Virus genome (UHGV): UHGV-0044850
Source: a virus
Strand: one strand, 5' to 3'
DNA: 10,997 nt
In this document: one piece after another, positions 1,900-10,400 of the stretch
Layout of the letters: each line of letters starts with the position of its first letter
Position numbering within the stretch: the first letter of the stretch is position 1
Translations under genes and position numbers: made by a program
The notes under the pieces: model-generated
Databases searched by the model: none
Told to the model about the DNA's origin: nothing
The model's input: the letters and a program-made list of their open reading frames with translations, nothing else

Positions 1900-2576
1900 C
1901 GCCATTGCTCCCCAAATACAAAACTAATTTCAGCCAGTGCCTCGTCCATTTTTTCGATGAACTCCGGCACCATCTCGTCAAAACTCGCCATGTACTTTTC
2001 ATTCCGCTCAATCACGACATAATGCAGGCCTTCACGCTTCATGCGCGGGTCATAGTTGGCAAAGTACCAGGCATCTTTTCGCGTCACCCACATGCTGTAC
2101 TGCACCTGGGCCATGTAAGCCGATTTTATTGCCTCGAAACCACCGAGCCGGAATTTCATGAAATCCCGGGAGGTAAACGGGCATTTCAGTTCAAGGCCGT
2201 TGCCGTCACTGCATAAACCATCGGGAGAGCAGGCGGTGCGCATACTTTCGTCGCGATAGATGATCGGGGATTCAGTAATATTCACGCCGGAAGTGAATTC
2301 AAACAGGGTTCTGGCGTCGTTCTCGTACTGTTTTCCCCAGGCCAGCGCCTTAGCATTAACTTCCGGAGCCACACCGGTGCAAACCTCAGCCAGCAGGGTG
2401 TGGAAGTAGGACATTTTCATGTCAGGCCACTTCTTTCCTGAGCGGGGCTTTGCTATCACGTTGTGAACTTCTGAAGCGGTGATGACGCCGAGCCGTAATT
2501 TGTGCCATGCATCATCCCCCTGTTCGACAGCTCTCACGTCGATCCCGGTACGCTGCAGGATAATGTCCGGTATCAT
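1896..2576 (-). CDS. exo: lambda-type 5'-3' exonuclease (Red alpha, YqaJ-type)
   Basis: 226-aa ORF ([40 protein letters not shown]...FVFGEQWR), essentially lambda Exo from memory with a few substitutions. Its stop overlaps the bet start. Confidence 0.95.
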
Positions 2577-3358
2577 GCTGCCACCTTCTGCTCAGTGGCT
2601 TTCTGTTTCAGGAATCCAAGAGCTTTCACTGCTTCGGCCTGTGTCAGTTCTGACGATGCGCGAATGTCGCGGCGAAATATCTGGGAACAGAGCGGCAATA
2701 AGTCGTCATCCCATGTTTTATCCAGGGCGATCAGCAGAGTGTTAATCTCCTGCATGGTTTCATCGTTAACCGGAGTGATGTCGCGTTCCGGCTGACGTTC
2801 TGCAGTGTATGCAGTATTTTCGACAATGCGCTCGGCTTCATCCTTGTCATAGATACCAGCAAATCCGAAGGCCAGACGGGCACACTGAATCATGGCTTTA
2901 TGCCGTAACATCCGTTTGGGATGCGACTGCCACGGCCCCGTGATTTCTCTGCCTTCGCGAGTTTTGAATGGTTCGCGGCGGCATTCATCCATCCATTCGG
3001 TAACGCAGATCGGATGATTGCGGTCTTTGCGGTAAATCCGGCATGTACATGATTCATTGTCCTGCTCAAAGTCCATACCATCAAACTGCTGGTTTTCATT
3101 GATGATGCGGGACCAGCCATCAACGCCCACCACCGGAACAATGCCGTTCTGCTTATCAGGGAAGGCGTAAATTTCTTTCGTCCACGGATTAAGGCCGTAC
3201 TGGTTGGCGACGATCAACAATGCGATGAACTGCGCATCGCTGGCATCACCTTTAAATGCCGTCTGGCGAAGAGTGGTGATCAGTTCCTGTGGGTCGACAG
3301 AATCCATGCCGACACGTTCAGCCAGCTTCCCTGCCAGCGTTGCGAGTGCTGTACTCAT
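2573..3358 (-). CDS. bet: single-strand annealing protein Bet (Red beta)
   Basis: 261-aa ORF ([72 protein letters not shown]...) matching lambda Bet. ATG start; 4-nt overlap with exo. Confidence 0.95.
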
Positions 3359-3363
3359 CCGTT

Positions 3364-3660
3364 TTATACCTCTGAATCAATATCAGCCTGATGGTGAGCA
3401 ATGGTTTCAACTATGTACCGGATGTGTTCTGCCATGCGCTCCTGAAACTCAACATCGTCATCAAACGCACGGGTAATGGCTTTTTTGCTGGCCCCGTGGC
3501 GTTGCAAATGATCGATGCATAGCGATTCAAACAGGTGCTGGGGCAGGCCTTTTTCCATGTCGTCTGCCAGTTCTGCCTCTTTCTCTTCACGGGCGATCTG
3601 CTGGTAGTGACGCGCCCAGCTCTGAGCCTCAAGACGATCCTGAATGTAATAAGCGTTCAT
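3364..3660 (-). CDS. gam: Gam, short form (GamS), RecBCD inhibitor
   Basis: 98-aa ORF ([60 protein letters not shown]...IDSEV) matching lambda GamS. AGGAG RBS about 8 nt upstream of the ATG at 3660. The upstream ATG at 3781 that would give the long form is out of frame here (see findings). Confidence 0.9.
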
Positions 3661-4084: not shown

Positions 4085-4453
4085 TCAGGCGGCCTTGATA
4101 GTCATATCATCTGAATCAAATATTCCTGATGTATCGATATCGGTAATTCTTATTCCTTCACTACCATCCATTGGAGGCCATCCTTCCTGACCATTTCCAT
4201 CATTCCAGTCGAACTCACACACAACACCATATGCATTTAAGTCGCTTGAAATTGCTATAAGCAGAGCATGTTGCGCCAGCATGATTAATACAGCATTTAA
4301 TACAGAGCCGTGTTTATTGAGTCGGTATTCAGAGTCTGACCAGAAATTATTAATCTGGTGAAGTTTTTCCTCTGTCATTACGTCATGGTCAATTTCAATT
4401 TCTATTGATGCTTTCCAGTCGTAATCAATGATGTATTTTTTGATGTTTGACAT
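4085..4453 (-). CDS. ea10: Ea10-like early protein (function unknown)
   Basis: 122-aa ORF with ATG start. Same length as lambda ea10 and the same 72-nt spacing from cIII. I do not recall the lambda Ea10 sequence, so identity is by position and size only. Confidence 0.6.
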   Translation of the reverse strand: MSNIKKYIIDYDWKASIEIEIDHDVMTEEKLHQINNFWSDSEYRLNKHGSVLNAVLIMLAQHALLIAISSDLNAYGVVCEFDWNDGNGQEGWPPMDGSEGIRITDIDTSGIFDSDDMTIKAA

Positions 4454-4609: not shown

Positions 4610-5787
<1,178 letters not shown>

Positions 5788-5823
5788 TATGGCACCTGTG
5801 TTGTTCTGAGGTGAGCATATCAC

Positions 5824-5859
5824 CTCTGTTCAGGTGGCCAAATTCAGTAAACCACTTCA
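5824..5859. repeat. IS911 terminal inverted repeat (end proximal to orfA)
   Basis: Reverse complement begins TGAAGTGG and has the shared core TGGCCACC. IS3-family 5'-TG...CA-3' termini. Confidence 0.7.
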
Positions 5860-5888
5860 GTTATTTATGCCAAAAATAAAGGCCACTA

Positions 5889-6089
5889 TCAGGCAGCTTT
5901 GTTGTTCTGTTTACCAAGTTCTCTGGCAATCATTGCCGTCGTTCGTATTGCCCATTTATCGACATATTTCCCATCTTCCATTACAGGAAACATTTCTTCA
6001 GGCTTAACCATGCATTCCGATTGCAGCTTGCATCCATTGCATCGTTTGAATTGTCCACACCATTGATTTGTATCAATAGTCGTAGTCAT
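5889..6089 (-). CDS. ral: Ral (restriction alleviation, modulates type I restriction-modification)
   Basis: 66-aa ORF MTTTIDTNQWCGQFKRCNGCKLQSECMVKPEEMFPVMEDGKYVDKWAIRTTAMIARELGKQNNKAA, near-identical to lambda Ral from memory. Confidence 0.9.
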   Translation of the reverse strand: MTTTIDTNQWCGQFKRCNGCKLQSECMVKPEEMFPVMEDGKYVDKWAIRTTAMIARELGKQNNKAA

Positions 6090-6302: not shown

Positions 6303-6884
6303 ATGAACAACTCATGGTGGCAGGAACTAATGCATTTTTTCCTGCAAGGAATGACACTTAAACAGTTGATTCATATGCTAATCATCCTGATCATATTGAT
6401 TATTGTTATGCCGGTAAGCGTAAAAGAATGGATAAACCTGCATAGTCCAGAAATCCTTCCTCATTACTGGATGTATTACATCCTGTTGTTTTGCGTTAGC
6501 TATGTGCTTAACGGCGTTGTTAATTCCGCTTATCACGCTGTGACTGAAAGAATTGAGGTATTCGCTGCTCAGAAGCGCAAATCTAAAGAAGAAAAATATG
6601 TGCAAGATTTGTTTGATTCGTTAACTCTTGGAGAAAGAGCGTATTTGGCATTCGCTGTAGCCGCTAATAACCAGCTACAAACGGAAAAGGGCGCTCATGA
6701 ATCAATTTCATTGCTCAAAAAAGGACTCCTCGTTCGAAGGCCTCCTGCTGTTGGATATCCTGATACCGACCGTTTCGTTATCCCTGAAAGCTATAGACAT
6801 GAGTGCTACATTAGGTTTGCCGGGAAGGCAGACAGCCTTATGGATGAACTTATCGCTCAGGATAAGCATGGCAAAAACAAGTAA
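6303..6884 (+). CDS. sieB: SieB-like superinfection exclusion membrane protein
   Basis: 193-aa ORF on the opposite strand to the pL operon. Two strongly hydrophobic segments (LIHMLIILIILIIVMPV and YWMYYILLFCVSYVLNGVV). Position between ral/orf28 and N matches lambda sieB; sequence identity to lambda SieB is recalled only loosely. Confidence 0.65.
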   Translation: MNNSWWQELMHFFLQGMTLKQLIHMLIILIILIIVMPVSVKEWINLHSPEILPHYWMYYILLFCVSYVLNGVVNSAYHAVTERIEVFAAQKRKSKEEKYVQDLFDSLTLGERAYLAFAVAANNQLQTEKGAHESISLLKKGLLVRRPPAVGYPDTDRFVIPESYRHECYIRFAGKADSLMDELIAQDKHGKNK

Positions 6885-6900
6885 TTAGCAAATGAATTTA

Positions 6901-7173
6901 TCATCTCGCCGTCAGTTGTTTTGATTTCCGGTAGCCTGCCGCGTAAAGAGCTACGTTCGGAAGACAAGTTGAACCTTCATATTTTCTGGTCAACGTTGTC
7001 AGAGTTATCACTTCTGCTCTCATTGCTGGTTTGAGCTTGCATTGCAAGACCACTCGTGAAGGGGTTGGCCTGTGTAGCTTGTCGGAGCTGATCGCCTCCT
7101 GACTTTGCAGATTTGCGCGACGAGCTCTACGGCGAGAAGCTGCGGTGCCTTTAAATTCTGTTTTTCTGGACAT
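6901..7173 (-). CDS. N: N-like transcription antiterminator (non-lambda specificity)
   Basis: 90 aa from the ATG at 7173, which has GGGAGGAA RBS about 5 nt upstream; the track ORF begins at an upstream ATG (7245) with no RBS. Arginine-rich motif near the N-terminus (GTAASRRRARRANLQ). Sits immediately downstream of the nutL-like element. Sequence differs from lambda N. Confidence 0.7.
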   Translation of the reverse strand: MSRKTEFKGTAASRRRARRANLQSQEAISSDKLHRPTPSRVVLQCKLKPAMRAEVITLTTLTRKYEGSTCLPNVALYAAGYRKSKQLTAR

Positions 7174-7271
7174 GGATTCCTCCCGAATAAACTTTGGCGA
7201 TGCAATCTCGAAGCTCCTCCTGAGACGGTTGCTTCGGCATTGCATCCCACAGCTTATGTGGTTGGGTGATC

Positions 7272-7316
7272 TGGCTTTTCAGCCACGTAGTCGAGAGTCG
7301 ACGTTGTTTAAAGAGC
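7272..7316 (-). promoter_or_regulatory. nutL-like site: boxA, spacer hairpin, boxB
   Basis: Minus-strand RNA GCUCUUUAAACAACGUCGACUCUCGACUACGUGGCUGAAAAGCCA. The boxA-like GCUCUUUAAA is followed by hairpin GUCGA-CUC-UCGAC and then boxB-like UGGC-UGAAAA-GCCA. Closely parallels the element after cro (9952..9997). Confidence 0.55.
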
Positions 7317-7362
7317 CTGCCAGTCTGTTCCATTTGGCTTCCAGCGTCCTGCTGACGGTTAA

Positions 7363-7391
7363 ATAGTACGATATGTACTTTACAAGATCAA
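7363..7391 (-). promoter_or_regulatory. candidate pL promoter with overlapping operator (oL)
   Basis: Minus strand: -35 TTGATC (7391..7386), 17-nt spacer, -10 TACTAT (7368..7363). The spacer holds the 11-mer AAAGTACATAT also found in the pR spacer. 15-bp palindrome AGTACGATATGTACT at 7365..7379. Confidence 0.4.
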
Positions 7392-7578
7392 TACAATTTG
7401 TTGTAAGTTGGCGTGGTTTTTTATAACGCTTTGTATTTAATAGTGTTGTTTTTTAGCGTGGATGTATTGCCTCGGCGATGTAAGGAGAGATCAGAATTGC
7501 GTGGTTTAGTGGGTTGCATCTATTTATTTTTCAATAAATATAATTGGTTATGTGTTTTTAGGTGGGCGAACGTGAGGC

Positions 7579-7604
7579 AAAGAAAACCCGGCGCTGAGGC
7601 CGGG
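7579..7604 (-). terminator. intrinsic terminator after the two-gene cassette
   Basis: Minus strand CCCGGCCUCAGCGCCGGG (6-bp GC stem) followed by UUUUCUUU, starting 6 nt after the stop of the 250-aa gene. Confidence 0.55.
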
Positions 7605-7609
7605 TTGTA

Positions 7610-8362
7610 TTATGCTGCAAGTCTCTTAACCCAAGTCTCTCTTTTGGAGAATGGTAGAACTTGGCTTGATTCATGGAAGAGTAAGGAGAGTTGTTGCATT
7701 TGATCACCAATTGCTTCGCTGTCTATAACAACAAATCTGTTGTTATACTCCTCACTTGAAGCTTTAAGATCAATTAGTTTCCCAAGCAATGAGTAAGCAC
7801 TATTCCAGCTTCCTCCGTGTTTCACGCTTGATGTAAAAACGTATTTAGGTATGTCGGTTTTTATTGTTACAGGGACGGTAATTTGATGTCCACTCAAGCC
7901 ATATACGTTTTCACGAAGAGAAAGTGCGTCTCTAAGCTCTGTGTGATATAGATAATCAATAACCATACTTTCAAACTTTTCAGCTTGAACTGGCTGATAC
8001 CAGTCTAACGACAAAGTTGATGCGAGTATACCAGCTCTAATTATGTTCGATGTAATCGCACCGACATCCTTTTCTGTTGCCCAAGCAATGATTTCTCCTC
8101 GAGCATTGAGTTCTGCGCCTTCTTTAAGCAGTAATTGTCGTATCTCATCAAGTCGTTTTTTGGTAAGCGAGATCCCTCTTGCCTCCATATTCATTAAGGC
8201 ATCGCATCTGTCACTAACTAAATACCTACCATTGACTTCACGGATAAAGGCACCGACATGCTCTCCATCATCACAGTAAGTGAATGGACTGATAATTCTC
8301 AAGGTCTTGCCTATTGGATGGCATTCGAAACCTAGTTGTGAGATCACTGTTGAGCACATCAT
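7610..8362 (-). CDS. hypothetical protein, second gene of cassette in the rex position (250 aa)
   Basis: ATG at 8362 overlaps the TGA stop of the upstream gene (ATGA). No transmembrane segment obvious. No similarity to RexA/RexB or other proteins I can recall. AT-rich coding sequence. Confidence 0.7.
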   Translation of the reverse strand: MMCSTVISQLGFECHPIGKTLRIISPFTYCDDGEHVGAFIREVNGRYLVSDRCDALMNMEARGISLTKKRLDEIRQLLLKEGAELNARGEIIAWATEKDVGAITSNIIRAGILASTLSLDWYQPVQAEKFESMVIDYLYHTELRDALSLRENVYGLSGHQITVPVTIKTDIPKYVFTSSVKHGGSWNSAYSLLGKLIDLKASSEEYNNRFVVIDSEAIGDQMQQLSLLFHESSQVLPFSKRETWVKRLAA

Positions 8363-8916
8363 ATTCCAAACCCCATTTGCCCCGACTCATCTTCAAGCGG
8401 TAAAGGTATTCTCCCAGAGTAAGTTATGTTCAGATGTTTACAGAAGTAATTCCAATACCCTACCAGGTCATCTGGGTTTATGTCATCTTCGATTGGAAAC
8501 GCTATTCTATCACTATAGTATCCAGCTTCTTCATAGTATACATGGTAGTGAGCACCGTAAATGATATCTTGGTACTTCGGATGATCGACCTTGTAACTAT
8601 TCGTGTGTTTGTCAAAGTGATAGGTATCTACCGCGAAAACCCTCTTGTTATGATAGAAAGCAATAATATTTATTTTAGGGTAAGAAATCGGGTCATCAGG
8701 TTCTGAATCCTGATCTGGTTTCCATTTCAGTTCAAACTTTAGCCCTTGTATAGGTATACAATCCTCATCCAAGGGGATGATATGGGCTTGTAGCCACATA
8801 TCAGAGCGACTTGGTTTCTGTTTCCATTTAACGCCAGAAAAGTTAACTATTTTTTTACAATAAAGTACTTTATCAACTTCTACTTGGCTTGGCTGATAAT
8901 CATCTATTTTTGCCAA
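8359..8916 (-). CDS. hypothetical protein, first gene of cassette in the rex position (185 aa if TTG start)
   Basis: The frame opens right after a TAA stop. The first start-like codon is TTG at 8916 with AGGGCGG 7-13 nt upstream; the first in-frame ATG (8799) has no RBS. Begins 39 nt downstream of the cI stop on the same strand. His/Tyr/Asp-rich (HYHVYYEEAGYY). Confidence 0.6.
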   Translation of the reverse strand: MAKIDDYQPSQVEVDKVLYCKKIVNFSGVKWKQKPSRSDMWLQAHIIPLDEDCIPIQGLKFELKWKPDQDSEPDDPISYPKINIIAFYHNKRVFAVDTYHFDKHTNSYKVDHPKYQDIIYGAHYHVYYEEAGYYSDRIAFPIEDDINPDDLVGYWNYFCKHLNITYSGRIPLPLEDESGQMGFGI

Positions 8917-8955
8917 TGTTTACCGCCCTGTAAATTGTAGATAAAAGTGGTTTCA

Positions 8956-9609
8956 TCACCCAAACGTCTCTTCAGGCCATTGGCTGGCGATAACTTTCCC
9001 CACAACGGAACAACTCTCATTGCATGGGATCATTGGGTATTGTGGGTTTAGTGGCTGTAGAAACACCTGACCGCTATCCCTGATCAGTTTCTTGAAGGTA
9101 AATTCATCACCACCAAGTCTGGCTATGCAGAAATCGCCGGGCTCAACAGCTTGCTCAGGGTCAACCAGAATTAACATCCCGTCAGGAAAGCTGGGTTTGG
9201 AACCTGTTGGTGCGGTCATTGAGTTACCTTCAACCTCAAGCCAGAATGCAGAGTCACTGGCTTTTTTGGTTGTGCTTACCAATCTCTCCGCATCGCCTTT
9301 GGTAAAGGTTCTGAGTTCTGGAGAGAACATCCCAGCCTGAACATGAGAAAAAACAGGGTACTCATATTGTTTTTTAACTGGGGCCGATGAGTATTCGCCA
9401 ACAGGTGAAAATGTCCCGTCGTGGTTGAATGATATGTTATCAATACCAAGGTATTTAAACACCACACCAATATCACTAAGAGATGGATGACGAGATCCGC
9501 GCAACCAGTGTCCAATCCCACCCTGCGTCATACCTAGCTCTTCGGCTAACTTCTCTTGAGTTATGCCGAGCTCTTTCATTCTGGATCTAGCCAGTTCATA
9601 CCATTTCAT
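8956..9609 (-). CDS. cI: CI-type prophage repressor: HTH N-terminal domain plus lambda-type LexA-like (S24) C-terminal domain
   Basis: C-terminal about 130 aa ([28 protein letters not shown]...[12 protein letters not shown]) match lambda cI, including the VQAG cleavage region and the GNSM serine and FKK lysine motifs. N-terminal domain ([38 protein letters not shown]) is a different helix-turn-helix. Start taken as the ATG at 9609 with AAGGA 7 nt upstream; in-frame ATGs at 9615 and 9651 and a TTG at 9657 are alternatives. Confidence 0.85.
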
Positions 9610-9726
9610 TTTCATGTCCTTATTATTACGCTCTGTACTGGAACCATCCATGCACAATGTGTATTTTTACTTGTATTCGCAAAGTACATATTGTATTTTT
9701 TTATTCGTGTTTACTATGGAGGGCAT
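9610..9726. promoter_or_regulatory. oR region with divergent pR/pRM (operator sites not resolved)
   Basis: 117-bp AT-rich intergenic region between divergent cI and cro. Candidate pR: -35 TTGTAT (9671..9676), 17-nt spacer, -10 TATTTT (9694..9699). The spacer contains AAAGTACATAT (9681..9691), the same 11-mer as in the pL spacer. Repeated TGTATT motifs. Confidence 0.45.
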
Positions 9727-10027: not shown

Positions 10028-10045
10028 TATGCGTTTCCACGCATA
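10028..10045 (+). terminator. hairpin between nutR and cII (possible tR1-associated structure)
   Basis: TATGCGT-TTCC-ACGCATA, a 7-bp stem, followed by CCTTTCAAC, which is only weakly U-rich. Lambda tR1 is Rho-dependent, so this is tentative. Confidence 0.25.
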
Positions 10046-10083
10046 CCTTTCAACTAACTATTCACTATTGGAAATCTTAAGAA

Positions 10084-10380
10084 ATGGAAAGAACAAGTTA
10101 CAGCAAACTATCACAGCGTGACGTTGATCGCGCAGAAACAGATTTACTTATCAATCTGTCAGCTATTACCCAGCGCGGTCTGGCAAAGATGATTGGCTGT
10201 CATGAATCGAAGATAAGCAGAACGGACTGGAGATTTATTGCTTCGGTCTTGTGTGCTTTCGGAATGGCATCAGACATCAGTCCGATTAGCAGGGCTTTTA
10301 AGTATGCGCTTGATGGACTCACCAATAAAAAACGCCCGGCGGCAACCGAGCGTTCTGAACAAATCCAGATGGAATTCTGA
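10084..10380 (+). CDS. cII: CII transcriptional activator (chimeric: lambda-type C-terminus)
   Basis: 98-aa ORF. C-terminal TNKKRPAATERSEQIQMEF matches lambda cII. Central HTH region (RGLAKMIGCHESKISRTDWRF) and N-terminus differ from lambda. Confidence 0.85.
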   Translation: MERTSYSKLSQRDVDRAETDLLINLSAITQRGLAKMIGCHESKISRTDWRFIASVLCAFGMASDISPISRAFKYALDGLTNKKRPAATERSEQIQMEF

Positions 10381-10400
10381 GGTCATTACTGGATCAATCC
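10324..10400 (-). ncRNA. oop: oop antisense RNA (overlaps the cII 3' end)
   Basis: Minus strand matches my recollection of lambda oop: ...CUGAGGUCAUUACUGGAUC...GAUUUGUUCAGAACGCUCGGUUGCCGCCGGGCGUUUUUUAUU, ending in a stem plus U6 terminator (+ strand 10325..10352). 5' end is approximate. Confidence 0.6.

What the first reader, a model, noticed from the sequence alone, without database searches (positions are those of the whole stretch)
7579..8955. Uncharacterised two-gene cassette in the rexAB slot, co-oriented with cI
Two overlapping ORFs (185 aa at 8359..8916, 250 aa at 7610..8362, ATGA stop/start overlap) start 39 nt after the cI stop on the same strand and end at a GC-stem/U-tract terminator (7579..7604) just before pL. 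This is where lambda carries rexA-rexB, and where lambdoid phages are known to carry varied lysogen-expressed exclusion or defence cargo. Neither protein resembles RexA, RexB or any family I recognise, and no transmembrane segment is evident (RexB is a membrane protein). Two hand-counted 60-nt samples inside the cassette are about 37% GC against roughly 45-50% in the flanking Red genes, consistent with horizontally acquired cargo. The first gene appears to start with TTG. Placement implies expression from pRM/pRE together with the repressor in lysogens, as expected for an anti-phage or lysogenic-conversion module.
Basis: partly seen in the sequence, partly recalled or inferred. Interest (0 to 1): 0.8.

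Follow-up and report, generated by a model that had tools for sequence, protein, structure and literature searches.

The report
Unstudied gene pair replacing lambda rexAB
A conserved, uncharacterised pair of overlapping genes sits exactly where phage lambda carries its rexA-rexB exclusion genes; it follows the repressor gene in temperate phages from E. coli to Pseudomonas, is more common in E. coli genomes than rexAB, and is most likely a lysogen-expressed anti-phage system of unknown mechanism.

Summary
Two overlapping ORFs (geneA 8359-8916, 185 aa, TTG start; geneB 7610-8362, 250 aa) begin 39 nt after the cI stop and end at a strong hairpin/U-tract terminator. Alignment with lambda shows homology stopping at the cI stop and resuming at the rexB stop, so the cassette replaces rexA-rexB precisely.

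The A-B pair was intact in all 20 distinct relatives examined (Enterobacterales, Aeromonas, Pasteurellaceae, a Pseudomonas phage, metagenomes). In most it lies just downstream of an S24-type repressor, co-oriented with it.

GeneB is a DUF1828 protein. Its N-domain resembles type III secretion chaperones and its C-domain has a restriction-endonuclease-like fold without the canonical catalytic motif. GeneA is a beta-rich protein with an invariant D/H-x-N/G-x-H-x-H constellation and no structural match. Both are distant relatives of PADLOC's untested candidate PDC-M24.

Neither protein resembles RexA or RexB, and neither has a membrane segment.

Best reading (about 0.55): a prophage defence module expressed with the repressor. 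No experiment or transcript data supports function, and the mechanism is inferred. One likely relevant paper (Brenes and Laub 2025) could not be read.

The parts
8956..9657 (-). cI-type repressor (HTH plus S24 peptidase) that heads the operon. Its C-terminal domain is lambda-like and its N-terminal domain is a different immunity type.
   Evidence: Pfam Peptidase_S24 1e-28 and HTH_3 2e-10. The DNA of 8955-9366 is 93% identical to the lambda cI 3' half. The protein is 71% identical to lambda cI over residues 26-233.
8917..8955 (-). 39-nt spacer between cI and geneA, with no terminator. This is the right-hand junction of the cargo.
   Evidence: Fold energy -5.7 kcal/mol, z = 0.02. Lambda homology ends at 8955.
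8359..8916 (-). geneA: 185 aa, TTG start, acidic (pI 5.3), soluble, beta-rich. It belongs to a small family with invariant K22, W31, R92, D97, N106, G121, H123, H125, F158 and P173, and nearly invariant H104.
7610..8362 (-). geneB: 250 aa, ATG start overlapping the geneA stop. The N-domain is DUF1828 with a type III secretion chaperone/YbjN-like fold. The C-domain has a restriction-endonuclease-like fold with an invariant G-x-S-G-H loop, D198, R209 and D214.
7585..7606 (-). Intrinsic terminator closing the cI-geneA-geneB unit. It corresponds in position and sequence to the lambda region just downstream of rexB.
   Evidence: Window 7485-7606 is 90% identical to lambda 35708-35826. The same 45 nt are annotated 'terminator' in phage 933W and are shared by many Stx phages.
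7485..7584 (-). Conserved left flank of the slot, lambda-like, lying between the terminator and the oL/pL region.
7365..7385 (.). Operator-like sequence (AGTACGATATGTACTTTAC) shared in inverted orientation with 9677-9697 between cI and cro. It marks the probable oL/pL.
   Evidence: Inferred from repeat sharing only.

Best explanation
The cassette is a self-contained two-protein module carried as lysogen-expressed cargo in the repressor operon of temperate phages. Its most likely role is to protect the lysogen against other phages (superinfection exclusion or abortive infection).

Shown:
- It replaces rexA-rexB base for base.
- It has no promoter or terminator of its own between cI and its end.
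- The A-B pair is kept together, usually with overlapping stop and start codons, from E. coli to Pasteurellaceae and a Pseudomonas phage.
- GeneA nearly always starts with GTG or TTG, while geneB starts with ATG.

Inferred:
- The pair is transcribed from pRM/pRE with cI and translated as a coupled pair, with A limiting.
- A and B form a complex.
- The chaperone-like DUF1828 domain of B acts as a protein-binding sensor or regulator, recognising either A or a phage protein.
- On infection, the restriction-endonuclease-fold domain of B and/or the His/Asp-centred site of A is unleashed on nucleic acid, blocking the invader or killing the cell.

The mechanism cannot be Rex-like, because there is no membrane component.
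For: Position: exact replacement of rexAB between the cI stop and the terminator. The spacer has no structure and the terminator is strong.

Unit conservation: A lies immediately upstream of B in all 8 genome loci. The same holds in E. coli allele-2 prophages, Aeromonas, Pseudomonas phage phPA-G, Rodentibacter and metagenomic contigs. A free-standing chromosomal copy also keeps the pair.

Repressor adjacency occurs across unrelated immunity types.

Defence association: both proteins hit the two halves of PADLOC candidate PDC-M24, in the same gene order. That candidate was defined by embedding in BREX, DISARM or type I RM loci. Other cargo in the same slot includes PDC-S43/DUF3024 (1e-38) and a weak PDC-S48 match, and rexAB itself in lambda.

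Two diverged alleles (41% and 51% identity) sit on one 96%-identical immunity backbone, with recombination junctions inside the cassette ends. This is typical of diversifying defence cargo.

Folds: sensor-like plus nuclease-like domains in B. A has an invariant potential metal-binding constellation.

The non-ATG start of A in 10 of 12 loci suggests tightly limited expression.
Against: There is no experimental phenotype and no transcript evidence. PDC-M24 itself is only a prediction.

The geneA match to PDC-M24A/DUF6978 is weak (18-22 bits, below Pfam's cut-off) and covers only its C-terminal third.

The nuclease-like domain of B lacks the canonical D...(D/E)xK residues. H159 sits where the Asp should be, and no conserved acidic-x-Lys exists. 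It may be catalytically dead or do something else.

Repressor adjacency could reflect a functional tie to the repressor rather than shared expression. Low GC is shared with other early-left genes.
Confidence: 0.55

Rival explanations
1. The pair modulates the prophage's own lysis-lysogeny switch. It could act on repressor cleavage, on induction, or on commitment to lytic growth, as lambda RexA does when it biases the bistable switch towards the lytic state.
For: The pair almost always follows an S24 autocleaving repressor, across immunity types that share little sequence. Lambda RexA, at the same slot, has such a second role (abstract of PMC11077077; PMC12315714).
Against: One copy stands alone between housekeeping genes with no repressor nearby, and another has no annotated S24 neighbour. 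Other unrelated cargo can be inserted between the repressor and the pair. The proteins have no DNA-binding HTH and no resemblance to RexA.
Confidence: 0.15
2. The pair is a toxin-antitoxin-like addiction module that stabilises the prophage. One protein (perhaps A, kept low by its weak start codon) is toxic, and the other (B, with its chaperone-like domain) neutralises it.
For: There are two small, translationally coupled genes. A has a conserved non-ATG start and B an ATG start. B's N-domain has a fold used by chaperones that hold effectors inactive. A free-standing chromosomal copy exists.
Against: No match to any toxin or antitoxin family in Pfam, NCBIfam or PADLOC. No autoregulatory DNA-binding domain is present. 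The pair has no promoter of its own in the window. Many toxin-antitoxin pairs act as abortive-infection systems anyway, so this overlaps with the main explanation rather than excluding it.
Confidence: 0.12
3. The pair is lysogenic-conversion cargo unrelated to phages, providing a host-fitness or virulence function. This would fit its frequency in extraintestinal pathogenic strains and in Nissle 1917.
For: The listed carriers include UPEC, APEC and probiotic strains (NU14, APEC O18, Nissle 1917, ATCC 25922). Morons at this slot are not all defence genes.
Against: The pair is spread across prophages of hosts with very different lifestyles (Aeromonas, Xenorhabdus, Thorsellia, Pasteurellaceae, a Pseudomonas phage). 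Both proteins are cytoplasmic, with no transmembrane segment. The only family links are to a defence candidate.
Confidence: 0.1

Closest known systems
Lambda RexA-RexB exclusion system
   Same: Exactly the same genomic slot and orientation. Both are two genes, co-oriented with and downstream of cI, closed by the homologous terminator region and upstream of oL/pL. Expression in the lysogen with the repressor is presumed for both.
   Different: No sequence similarity. No membrane protein, whereas RexB is polytopic (hydropathy 2.39 against 1.19 or less). RexA is not among the 60 best fold matches listed for either protein. The ion-channel/depolarisation model for Rex therefore cannot apply.
PADLOC phage defence candidate PDC-M24 (Payne et al. 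2024 preprint, cassette CAS_00098, FAM_00129>>FAM_00065)
   Same: Two adjacent co-oriented genes in the same order. GeneB matches PDC-M24B over its full length (4.7e-10). Relatives of geneB match at 1e-5 to 2e-15. GeneA and its relatives repeatedly give weak matches to PDC-M24A over the same C-terminal region.
   Different: The matches are remote: geneA scores 18 bits. PDC-M24 was defined from cassettes embedded in BREX, DISARM or type I RM loci, whereas this clade lives behind prophage repressors. PDC-M24 has no experimental validation that I could find.
Sensor-plus-PD-(D/E)xK-nuclease defence effectors (for example Can2/Card1 CARF nucleases)
   Different: The N-domain is a secretion-chaperone/YbjN-like fold, not CARF. 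The canonical catalytic residues are missing. A second obligatory protein (A) of unknown fold is present.
Type III secretion chaperones / YbjN / DUF2170 family proteins
   Different: The resemblance is in fold only (5-13% identity). No secretion system is involved, and here the domain is fused to a nuclease-like domain.

Membership tests
Lambda RexAB | RexA homologue | tested here: not met
Lambda RexAB | RexB-type polytopic membrane protein | tested here: not met
   No 19-residue window exceeds 1.6 on the Kyte-Doolittle scale in either protein, whereas RexB has 51 such windows.
Lambda RexAB | Location downstream of cI, co-oriented with it, and upstream of oL/pL | tested here: met
   Exact replacement of lambda 35827-37225.
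Lambda RexAB | Exclusion of T4 rII and other phages in lysogens | not testable with these tools
   Requires plating assays.
PADLOC PDC-M24 (candidate) | Protein matching the PDC-M24B profile | tested here: met
   PDLC04540, E 4.7e-10, residues 2-249 against profile positions 4-254 of 256.
PADLOC PDC-M24 (candidate) | Protein matching the PDC-M24A profile | tested here: inconclusive
   PDLC04536, E 4.8e-4, 18 bits, residues 104-163 only. Eight of ten relatives give similarly weak matches.
PADLOC PDC-M24 (candidate) | A then B, adjacent on one strand | tested here: met
PADLOC PDC-M24 (candidate) | Demonstrated anti-phage activity | not testable with these tools
   None is reported in the preprint text or supplements that I could read.
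Pfam DUF1828 (PF08861) | Score above the gathering threshold | tested here: met
   33.5 bits against a cut-off of 22, residues 26-110 of geneB.
Pfam DUF6978 (PF22398) | Score above the gathering threshold | tested here: not met
   22.0 bits against a cut-off of 29.6, covering only the C-terminal part of the profile. Eight of 15 family members hit it weakly, which suggests remote kinship rather than membership.
PD-(D/E)xK nucleases | Restriction-endonuclease-like alpha/beta core | tested here: met
PD-(D/E)xK nucleases | Catalytic Asp at the start of strand 2 and (D/E)-x-K on strand 3 | tested here: not met
   The invariant residues are S157-G158-H159 at the strand 1-2 turn, K173, T177, D198, N208-R209 and D214. 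No conserved acidic-x-Lys is present. K173 may not be kept in the Pseudomonas homologue (by eye).
Type II toxin-antitoxin systems | Recognisable toxin or antitoxin domain and an autoregulatory DNA-binding antitoxin | tested here: not met
   No such family in Pfam, NCBIfam or PADLOC.

The most novel reading that the evidence does not exclude
The cassette is the founding characterisable member of a new anti-phage system, widespread in temperate phages of Gammaproteobacteria, whose parts have no studied counterpart. One part is a protein of novel fold with a His/Asp metal-type site. The other is a secretion-chaperone-like sensor fused to a non-canonical endonuclease-fold domain. It works without any membrane component at the very locus where the Rex paradigm was defined. 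If the chaperone-like domain directly recognises a phage protein, that would be a new sensing module for bacterial immunity.
Probability: 0.3. Interest if true: 0.75.

Novelty: new variant of a known kind. Interest (0 to 1): 0.58.

Why it matters
The cI-to-pL slot of lambda is where phage exclusion was first defined genetically (rex). This work shows that a different, uncharacterised gene pair occupies that slot far more often in nature.

In 5426 complete E. coli genomes, 239 carry this allele and 61 carry a second allele, against 99 with rexAB, several of which are K-12-type laboratory strains. Carriers include Nissle 1917, ATCC 25922, the species type strain, uropathogenic and avian pathogenic strains, O104:H4 and an Stx1a phage.

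If the pair is a defence system, it affects phage-therapy host range and the phage resistance of a licensed probiotic. It would also add two unstudied protein families to bacterial immunity. It is directly testable because natural inducible phages carrying it exist (ev017, ev207, PhiR57_1, PhiR63_2).

Tried and rejected
- **Sequence searches of solved structures.** Profiles of A, B and the B C-domain gave nothing below E = 0.2.
- **NCBIfam.** No family for either protein.
- **Pfam on the isolated B C-domain.** Ten homologues gave no consistent family, and DUF1829 was not detected.
- **afdb50.** Not available on the machine.
- **A second profile search for geneB.** It reached no further than about 47% identity.
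- **Scans of viral contigs with distant geneA relatives.** These found nothing or could not be run.
- **Plasmids.** No geneB relative by tblastn.
- **Literature.** No paper in the library mentions PDC-M24, the two RefSeq accessions, or DUF1828/DUF6978 in a phage context. The DefensePredictor preprint has no supplements held. Brenes and Laub 2025 is not held, so prior testing there cannot be excluded.
- **The Nissle 1917 'phage repressor pr' gene.** I considered that this gene, reported to protect K-12, might be the cI of this operon or the cassette. Its primers map to cII instead.
- **An internal promoter for geneB (a pLIT analogue).** Promoter-like sites were not more frequent than in shuffles: 5 found against 6.2 expected.

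Full report
**1. What the window is**

The 10,997-bp window is the early-left and immunity region of a lambdoid prophage, read mostly on the minus strand. The genes are:
- exo (1896-2576), bet (2573-3358) and gam (3364-3660);
- ea10 (4085-4453);
- an IS3-family element (about 4610-5860);
- ral (5889-6089);
- sieB on the plus strand (6303-6884, Pfam SieB 9e-22);
- N (6901-7245, N_peptide 1e-32);
- the two ORFs of the finding;
- a cI-type repressor (8956-9657; S24 peptidase 1e-28 plus HTH);
- cro, and cII (10084-10380).

**2.

GeneA (8359-8916, 185 aa, TTG start) and geneB (7610-8362, 250 aa) overlap by the 4 nt ATGA. They start 39 nt after the cI stop.

They end 3 nt before an 8-bp, GC-rich hairpin followed by a U-tract (7606-7585). 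The hairpin folds at -14.6 kcal/mol, z = -3.6. The cI-geneA spacer is unstructured.

GC is 38% and 41% for the two genes, against 52% in exo/bet. Other early-left morons (sieB, ea10) are just as AT-rich.

Neither protein has a membrane segment or any BLASTP similarity to lambda RexA or RexB.

**3. It is literally the rex slot**

I aligned the window with lambda 34500-38500. Only two segments match in this region.
- Window 8955-9366 matches lambda 37226-37637 (93%). This is the 3' half of cI, ending one base beyond the stop.
- Window 7485-7606 matches lambda 35708-35826 (90%). This begins at the base after the rexB stop and includes the terminator.

The 1348 bp between them replace the 1399 bp of rexA-rexB. 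The first 45 nt downstream of geneB are identical in 933W and many Stx phages, where they are annotated as a terminator. The flanks are therefore a conserved frame and the content is exchangeable.

Operator-like 14-mers shared between about 7365-7385 and the cI-cro spacer place oL/pL some 200 nt beyond the terminator, as in lambda.

**4. The pair is a conserved unit**

The cassette is 100% identical in phages ev017, ev207, PhiR57_1 and PhiR63_2, and 99.6% identical in an Stx1a phage. It is present in full in 239 of 5426 complete E. coli genomes, including Nissle 1917, ATCC 25922, DSM 30083T, NU14 and APEC O18.

GeneB has homologues down to 47% identity in Salmonella, Yersinia, Klebsiella, Erwinia, Serratia, Photorhabdus, Providencia, Pectobacterium, Edwardsiella, Aeromonas and Thorsellia. 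GeneA has a parallel but faster-diverging set.

In all eight loci recovered from the species-representative genome set, a geneA homologue (41-65% identity) lies directly upstream of the geneB homologue (47-82%). In seven of them an HTH repressor ORF lies upstream of the pair and co-oriented with it, with divergent cro/cII/replication genes beyond. tblastn confirmed a cI homologue in four of these. The eighth locus is a 518-bp contig.

The same order, repressor then A then B, recurs in:
- a second E. coli allele (180 aa and 258 aa; 41% and 51% identity) behind two different cI types;
- Aeromonas prophages;
- the D3-like Pseudomonas phage phPA-G, where the A homologue is unannotated but present and overlaps B by ATGA;
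- a Rodentibacter prophage;
- a metagenomic contig.

There are two exceptions. One pair has no annotated S24 neighbour. One stands alone between housekeeping genes. So the pair is self-contained and not obligatorily tied to a repressor.

Allele 2 sits on an immunity backbone 96% identical to the window's. Homology breaks 44 nt inside geneA and 135 nt before the end of geneB. This indicates allelic exchange by recombination within the cassette ends.

Allele 2 occurs in 61 complete genomes, including O104:H4. Lambda rexAB occurs in 99, several of them K-12-type laboratory strains.

**5. What the proteins are**

*GeneB.* It scores above threshold for DUF1828 (residues 26-110) and matches PHROG 1960, a family of unknown function.

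Its AlphaFold model (pLDDT 81) has two domains.

The canonical D...(D/E)xK signature is absent. The invariant residues are a G-x-S-G-H loop at the strand 1-2 turn (H159 where the Asp would be), K173, T177, D198, N208-R209 and D214. S-G-H, D198, R209 and an acidic residue at 214 persist in the 30%-identical Pseudomonas protein (by eye). The C-domain has no Pfam family and no relative by sequence among solved structures.

*GeneA.* It matches PHROG 2017, a family of unknown function. It is rare: an exhaustive HMMER search of 1.84 billion cluster representatives found only 20 clusters at E of 0.001 or less.

Across members down to 21% identity, the invariant residues are K22, W31, R92, D97, N106, G121, H123, H125, F158 and P173, with H104 nearly invariant. 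This forms an R-x4-D ... H-x-N ... G-x-H-x-H constellation that looks like a metal or catalytic site.

*Start codons.* GeneA starts with GTG or TTG in 10 of 12 loci examined, whereas geneB starts with ATG. This points to deliberately low or coupled expression of A.

**6. Link to known systems**

The only system-level match is PADLOC's PDC-M24. GeneB hits PDC-M24B over its full length (4.7e-10). GeneA hits PDC-M24A weakly (4.8e-4). Relatives behave the same way: B at 1e-5 to 2e-15, A weakly or not at all.

PDC-M24 is cassette CAS_00098 of Payne et al. 2024. It was nominated because such cassettes occur embedded in BREX, DISARM or type I RM loci, and it has not been tested. The window's cassette is best described as a diverged, prophage-borne sister clade of that candidate.

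The slot also collects other candidates. A DUF3024 gene lies between cI and the pair in Izhakiella and Providencia, and it is PDC-S43 (1e-38). The extra gene in the Pseudomonas phage weakly matches PDC-S48.

**7. Mechanism**

Shown: position, operon-like layout, translational coupling, unit conservation, allelic diversification, domain folds, and absence of a membrane component.

Inferred: co-transcription with cI; an A-B complex; a sensing or regulatory role for the chaperone-like domain; and a nucleic-acid-directed effector activity in the endonuclease-fold domain and/or the His/Asp site of A.

I put 0.55 on 'lysogen-expressed anti-phage module'. I put much less, about 0.2-0.25, on the specific sensor-nuclease scheme.

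The rivals are:
- a modulator of the prophage's own switch, by analogy with RexA's second role (0.15);
- an addiction or toxin-antitoxin module, which overlaps with abortive infection (0.12);
- phage-unrelated lysogenic conversion (0.10).

**8. Novelty and limits**

The kind of thing is well known: exchangeable, repressor-co-expressed cargo at the rex slot. These particular proteins are unstudied in everything I could search. The geneB family is annotated only as 'DUF1828 domain-containing' and geneA as 'hypothetical'.

I could not read Brenes and Laub 2025 or the DefensePredictor supplements. Either may have tested E. coli prophage cassettes of this type. The full AlphaFold database could not be searched. 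There is no expression or phenotype evidence at all.

Noticed in passing
window 10038-10387 (cII, 10084-10380): The 'phage repressor (pr)' gene of E. coli Nissle 1917 prophage 3 was reported to reduce lambda and Stx-phage plating about 200-fold when cloned in K-12 (Bury et al. 2018, PMC5987069). Its published cloning and qPCR primers map to the cII homologue of this immunity region, not to cI or to the cassette. The published name appears to be a misannotation. The cassette, 1.1 kb away in the same prophage, was not tested there.
   Followed up: partly
window about 4610-5860: An IS3-family element (orfA 5485-5823, orfB 4640-5458, minus strand) is inserted between ea10 and ral. Related phages (PhiR57_1, L011) are contiguous across this point. 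In Nissle 1917 an IS3-like element (ISEc52 family) abuts a truncated integrase, and the whole Red/ea region is missing.
   Followed up: partly
window 8955-9657: The repressor is a natural hybrid. Its C-terminal (S24) half is 93% identical in DNA to lambda cI, while the N-terminal DNA-binding part and the operators are of a different immunity type, annotated CP-933H-like in ev017.
   Followed up: partly
L003 7044-7385; L005 7053-7394; L006 7052-7393: In Izhakiella and Providencia prophages a 113-aa DUF3024 protein lies between the repressor and the A-B pair. It matches another PADLOC candidate, PDC-S43, at 1e-38. The slot stacks candidate defence genes.
   Followed up: partly
L011-L016 (E. coli), 6471-7777 in locus coordinates: A second allele of the pair (180 aa and 258 aa; 41% and 51% identity) sits at the same slot. 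It follows either the window's cI type or a 237-aa cI paired with a lambda-type Cro, and is found in 61 complete genomes including O104:H4 strains.
   Followed up: yes
L022 4420-5004 (Pseudomonas phage VB_PaD_phPA-G, PP083311): An unannotated ORF fills the gap between CDS0028 and CDS0029. It is a geneA-family protein, carrying RVVAIDD...HMNK...HPHLH...YAEPL, and it overlaps the DUF1828 gene by ATGA. The deposited annotation misses it.
   Followed up: yes
geneA start codons: window 8914-8916; L003-L009, L011, L013, L017, L022: GeneA begins with GTG (8 loci) or TTG (2 loci) and with ATG in only 2 of the 12 loci checked, while geneB begins with ATG. This is a conserved weak start on the upstream gene of the pair.
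   Followed up: partly
L010 (Actinomadura rugatobispora JCM 3366, 518-bp contig): A 518-bp contig in an actinomycete assembly encodes the geneA/geneB junction at 64% and 82% identity to the E. coli proteins. This is most likely enterobacterial contamination of that assembly.
   Followed up: no
window 6303-6884 (+): A SieB homologue (PHROG 1301, 1e-121) lies on the opposite strand just beyond N. The prophage therefore carries at least one recognised exclusion gene in addition to the cassette.
   Followed up: no
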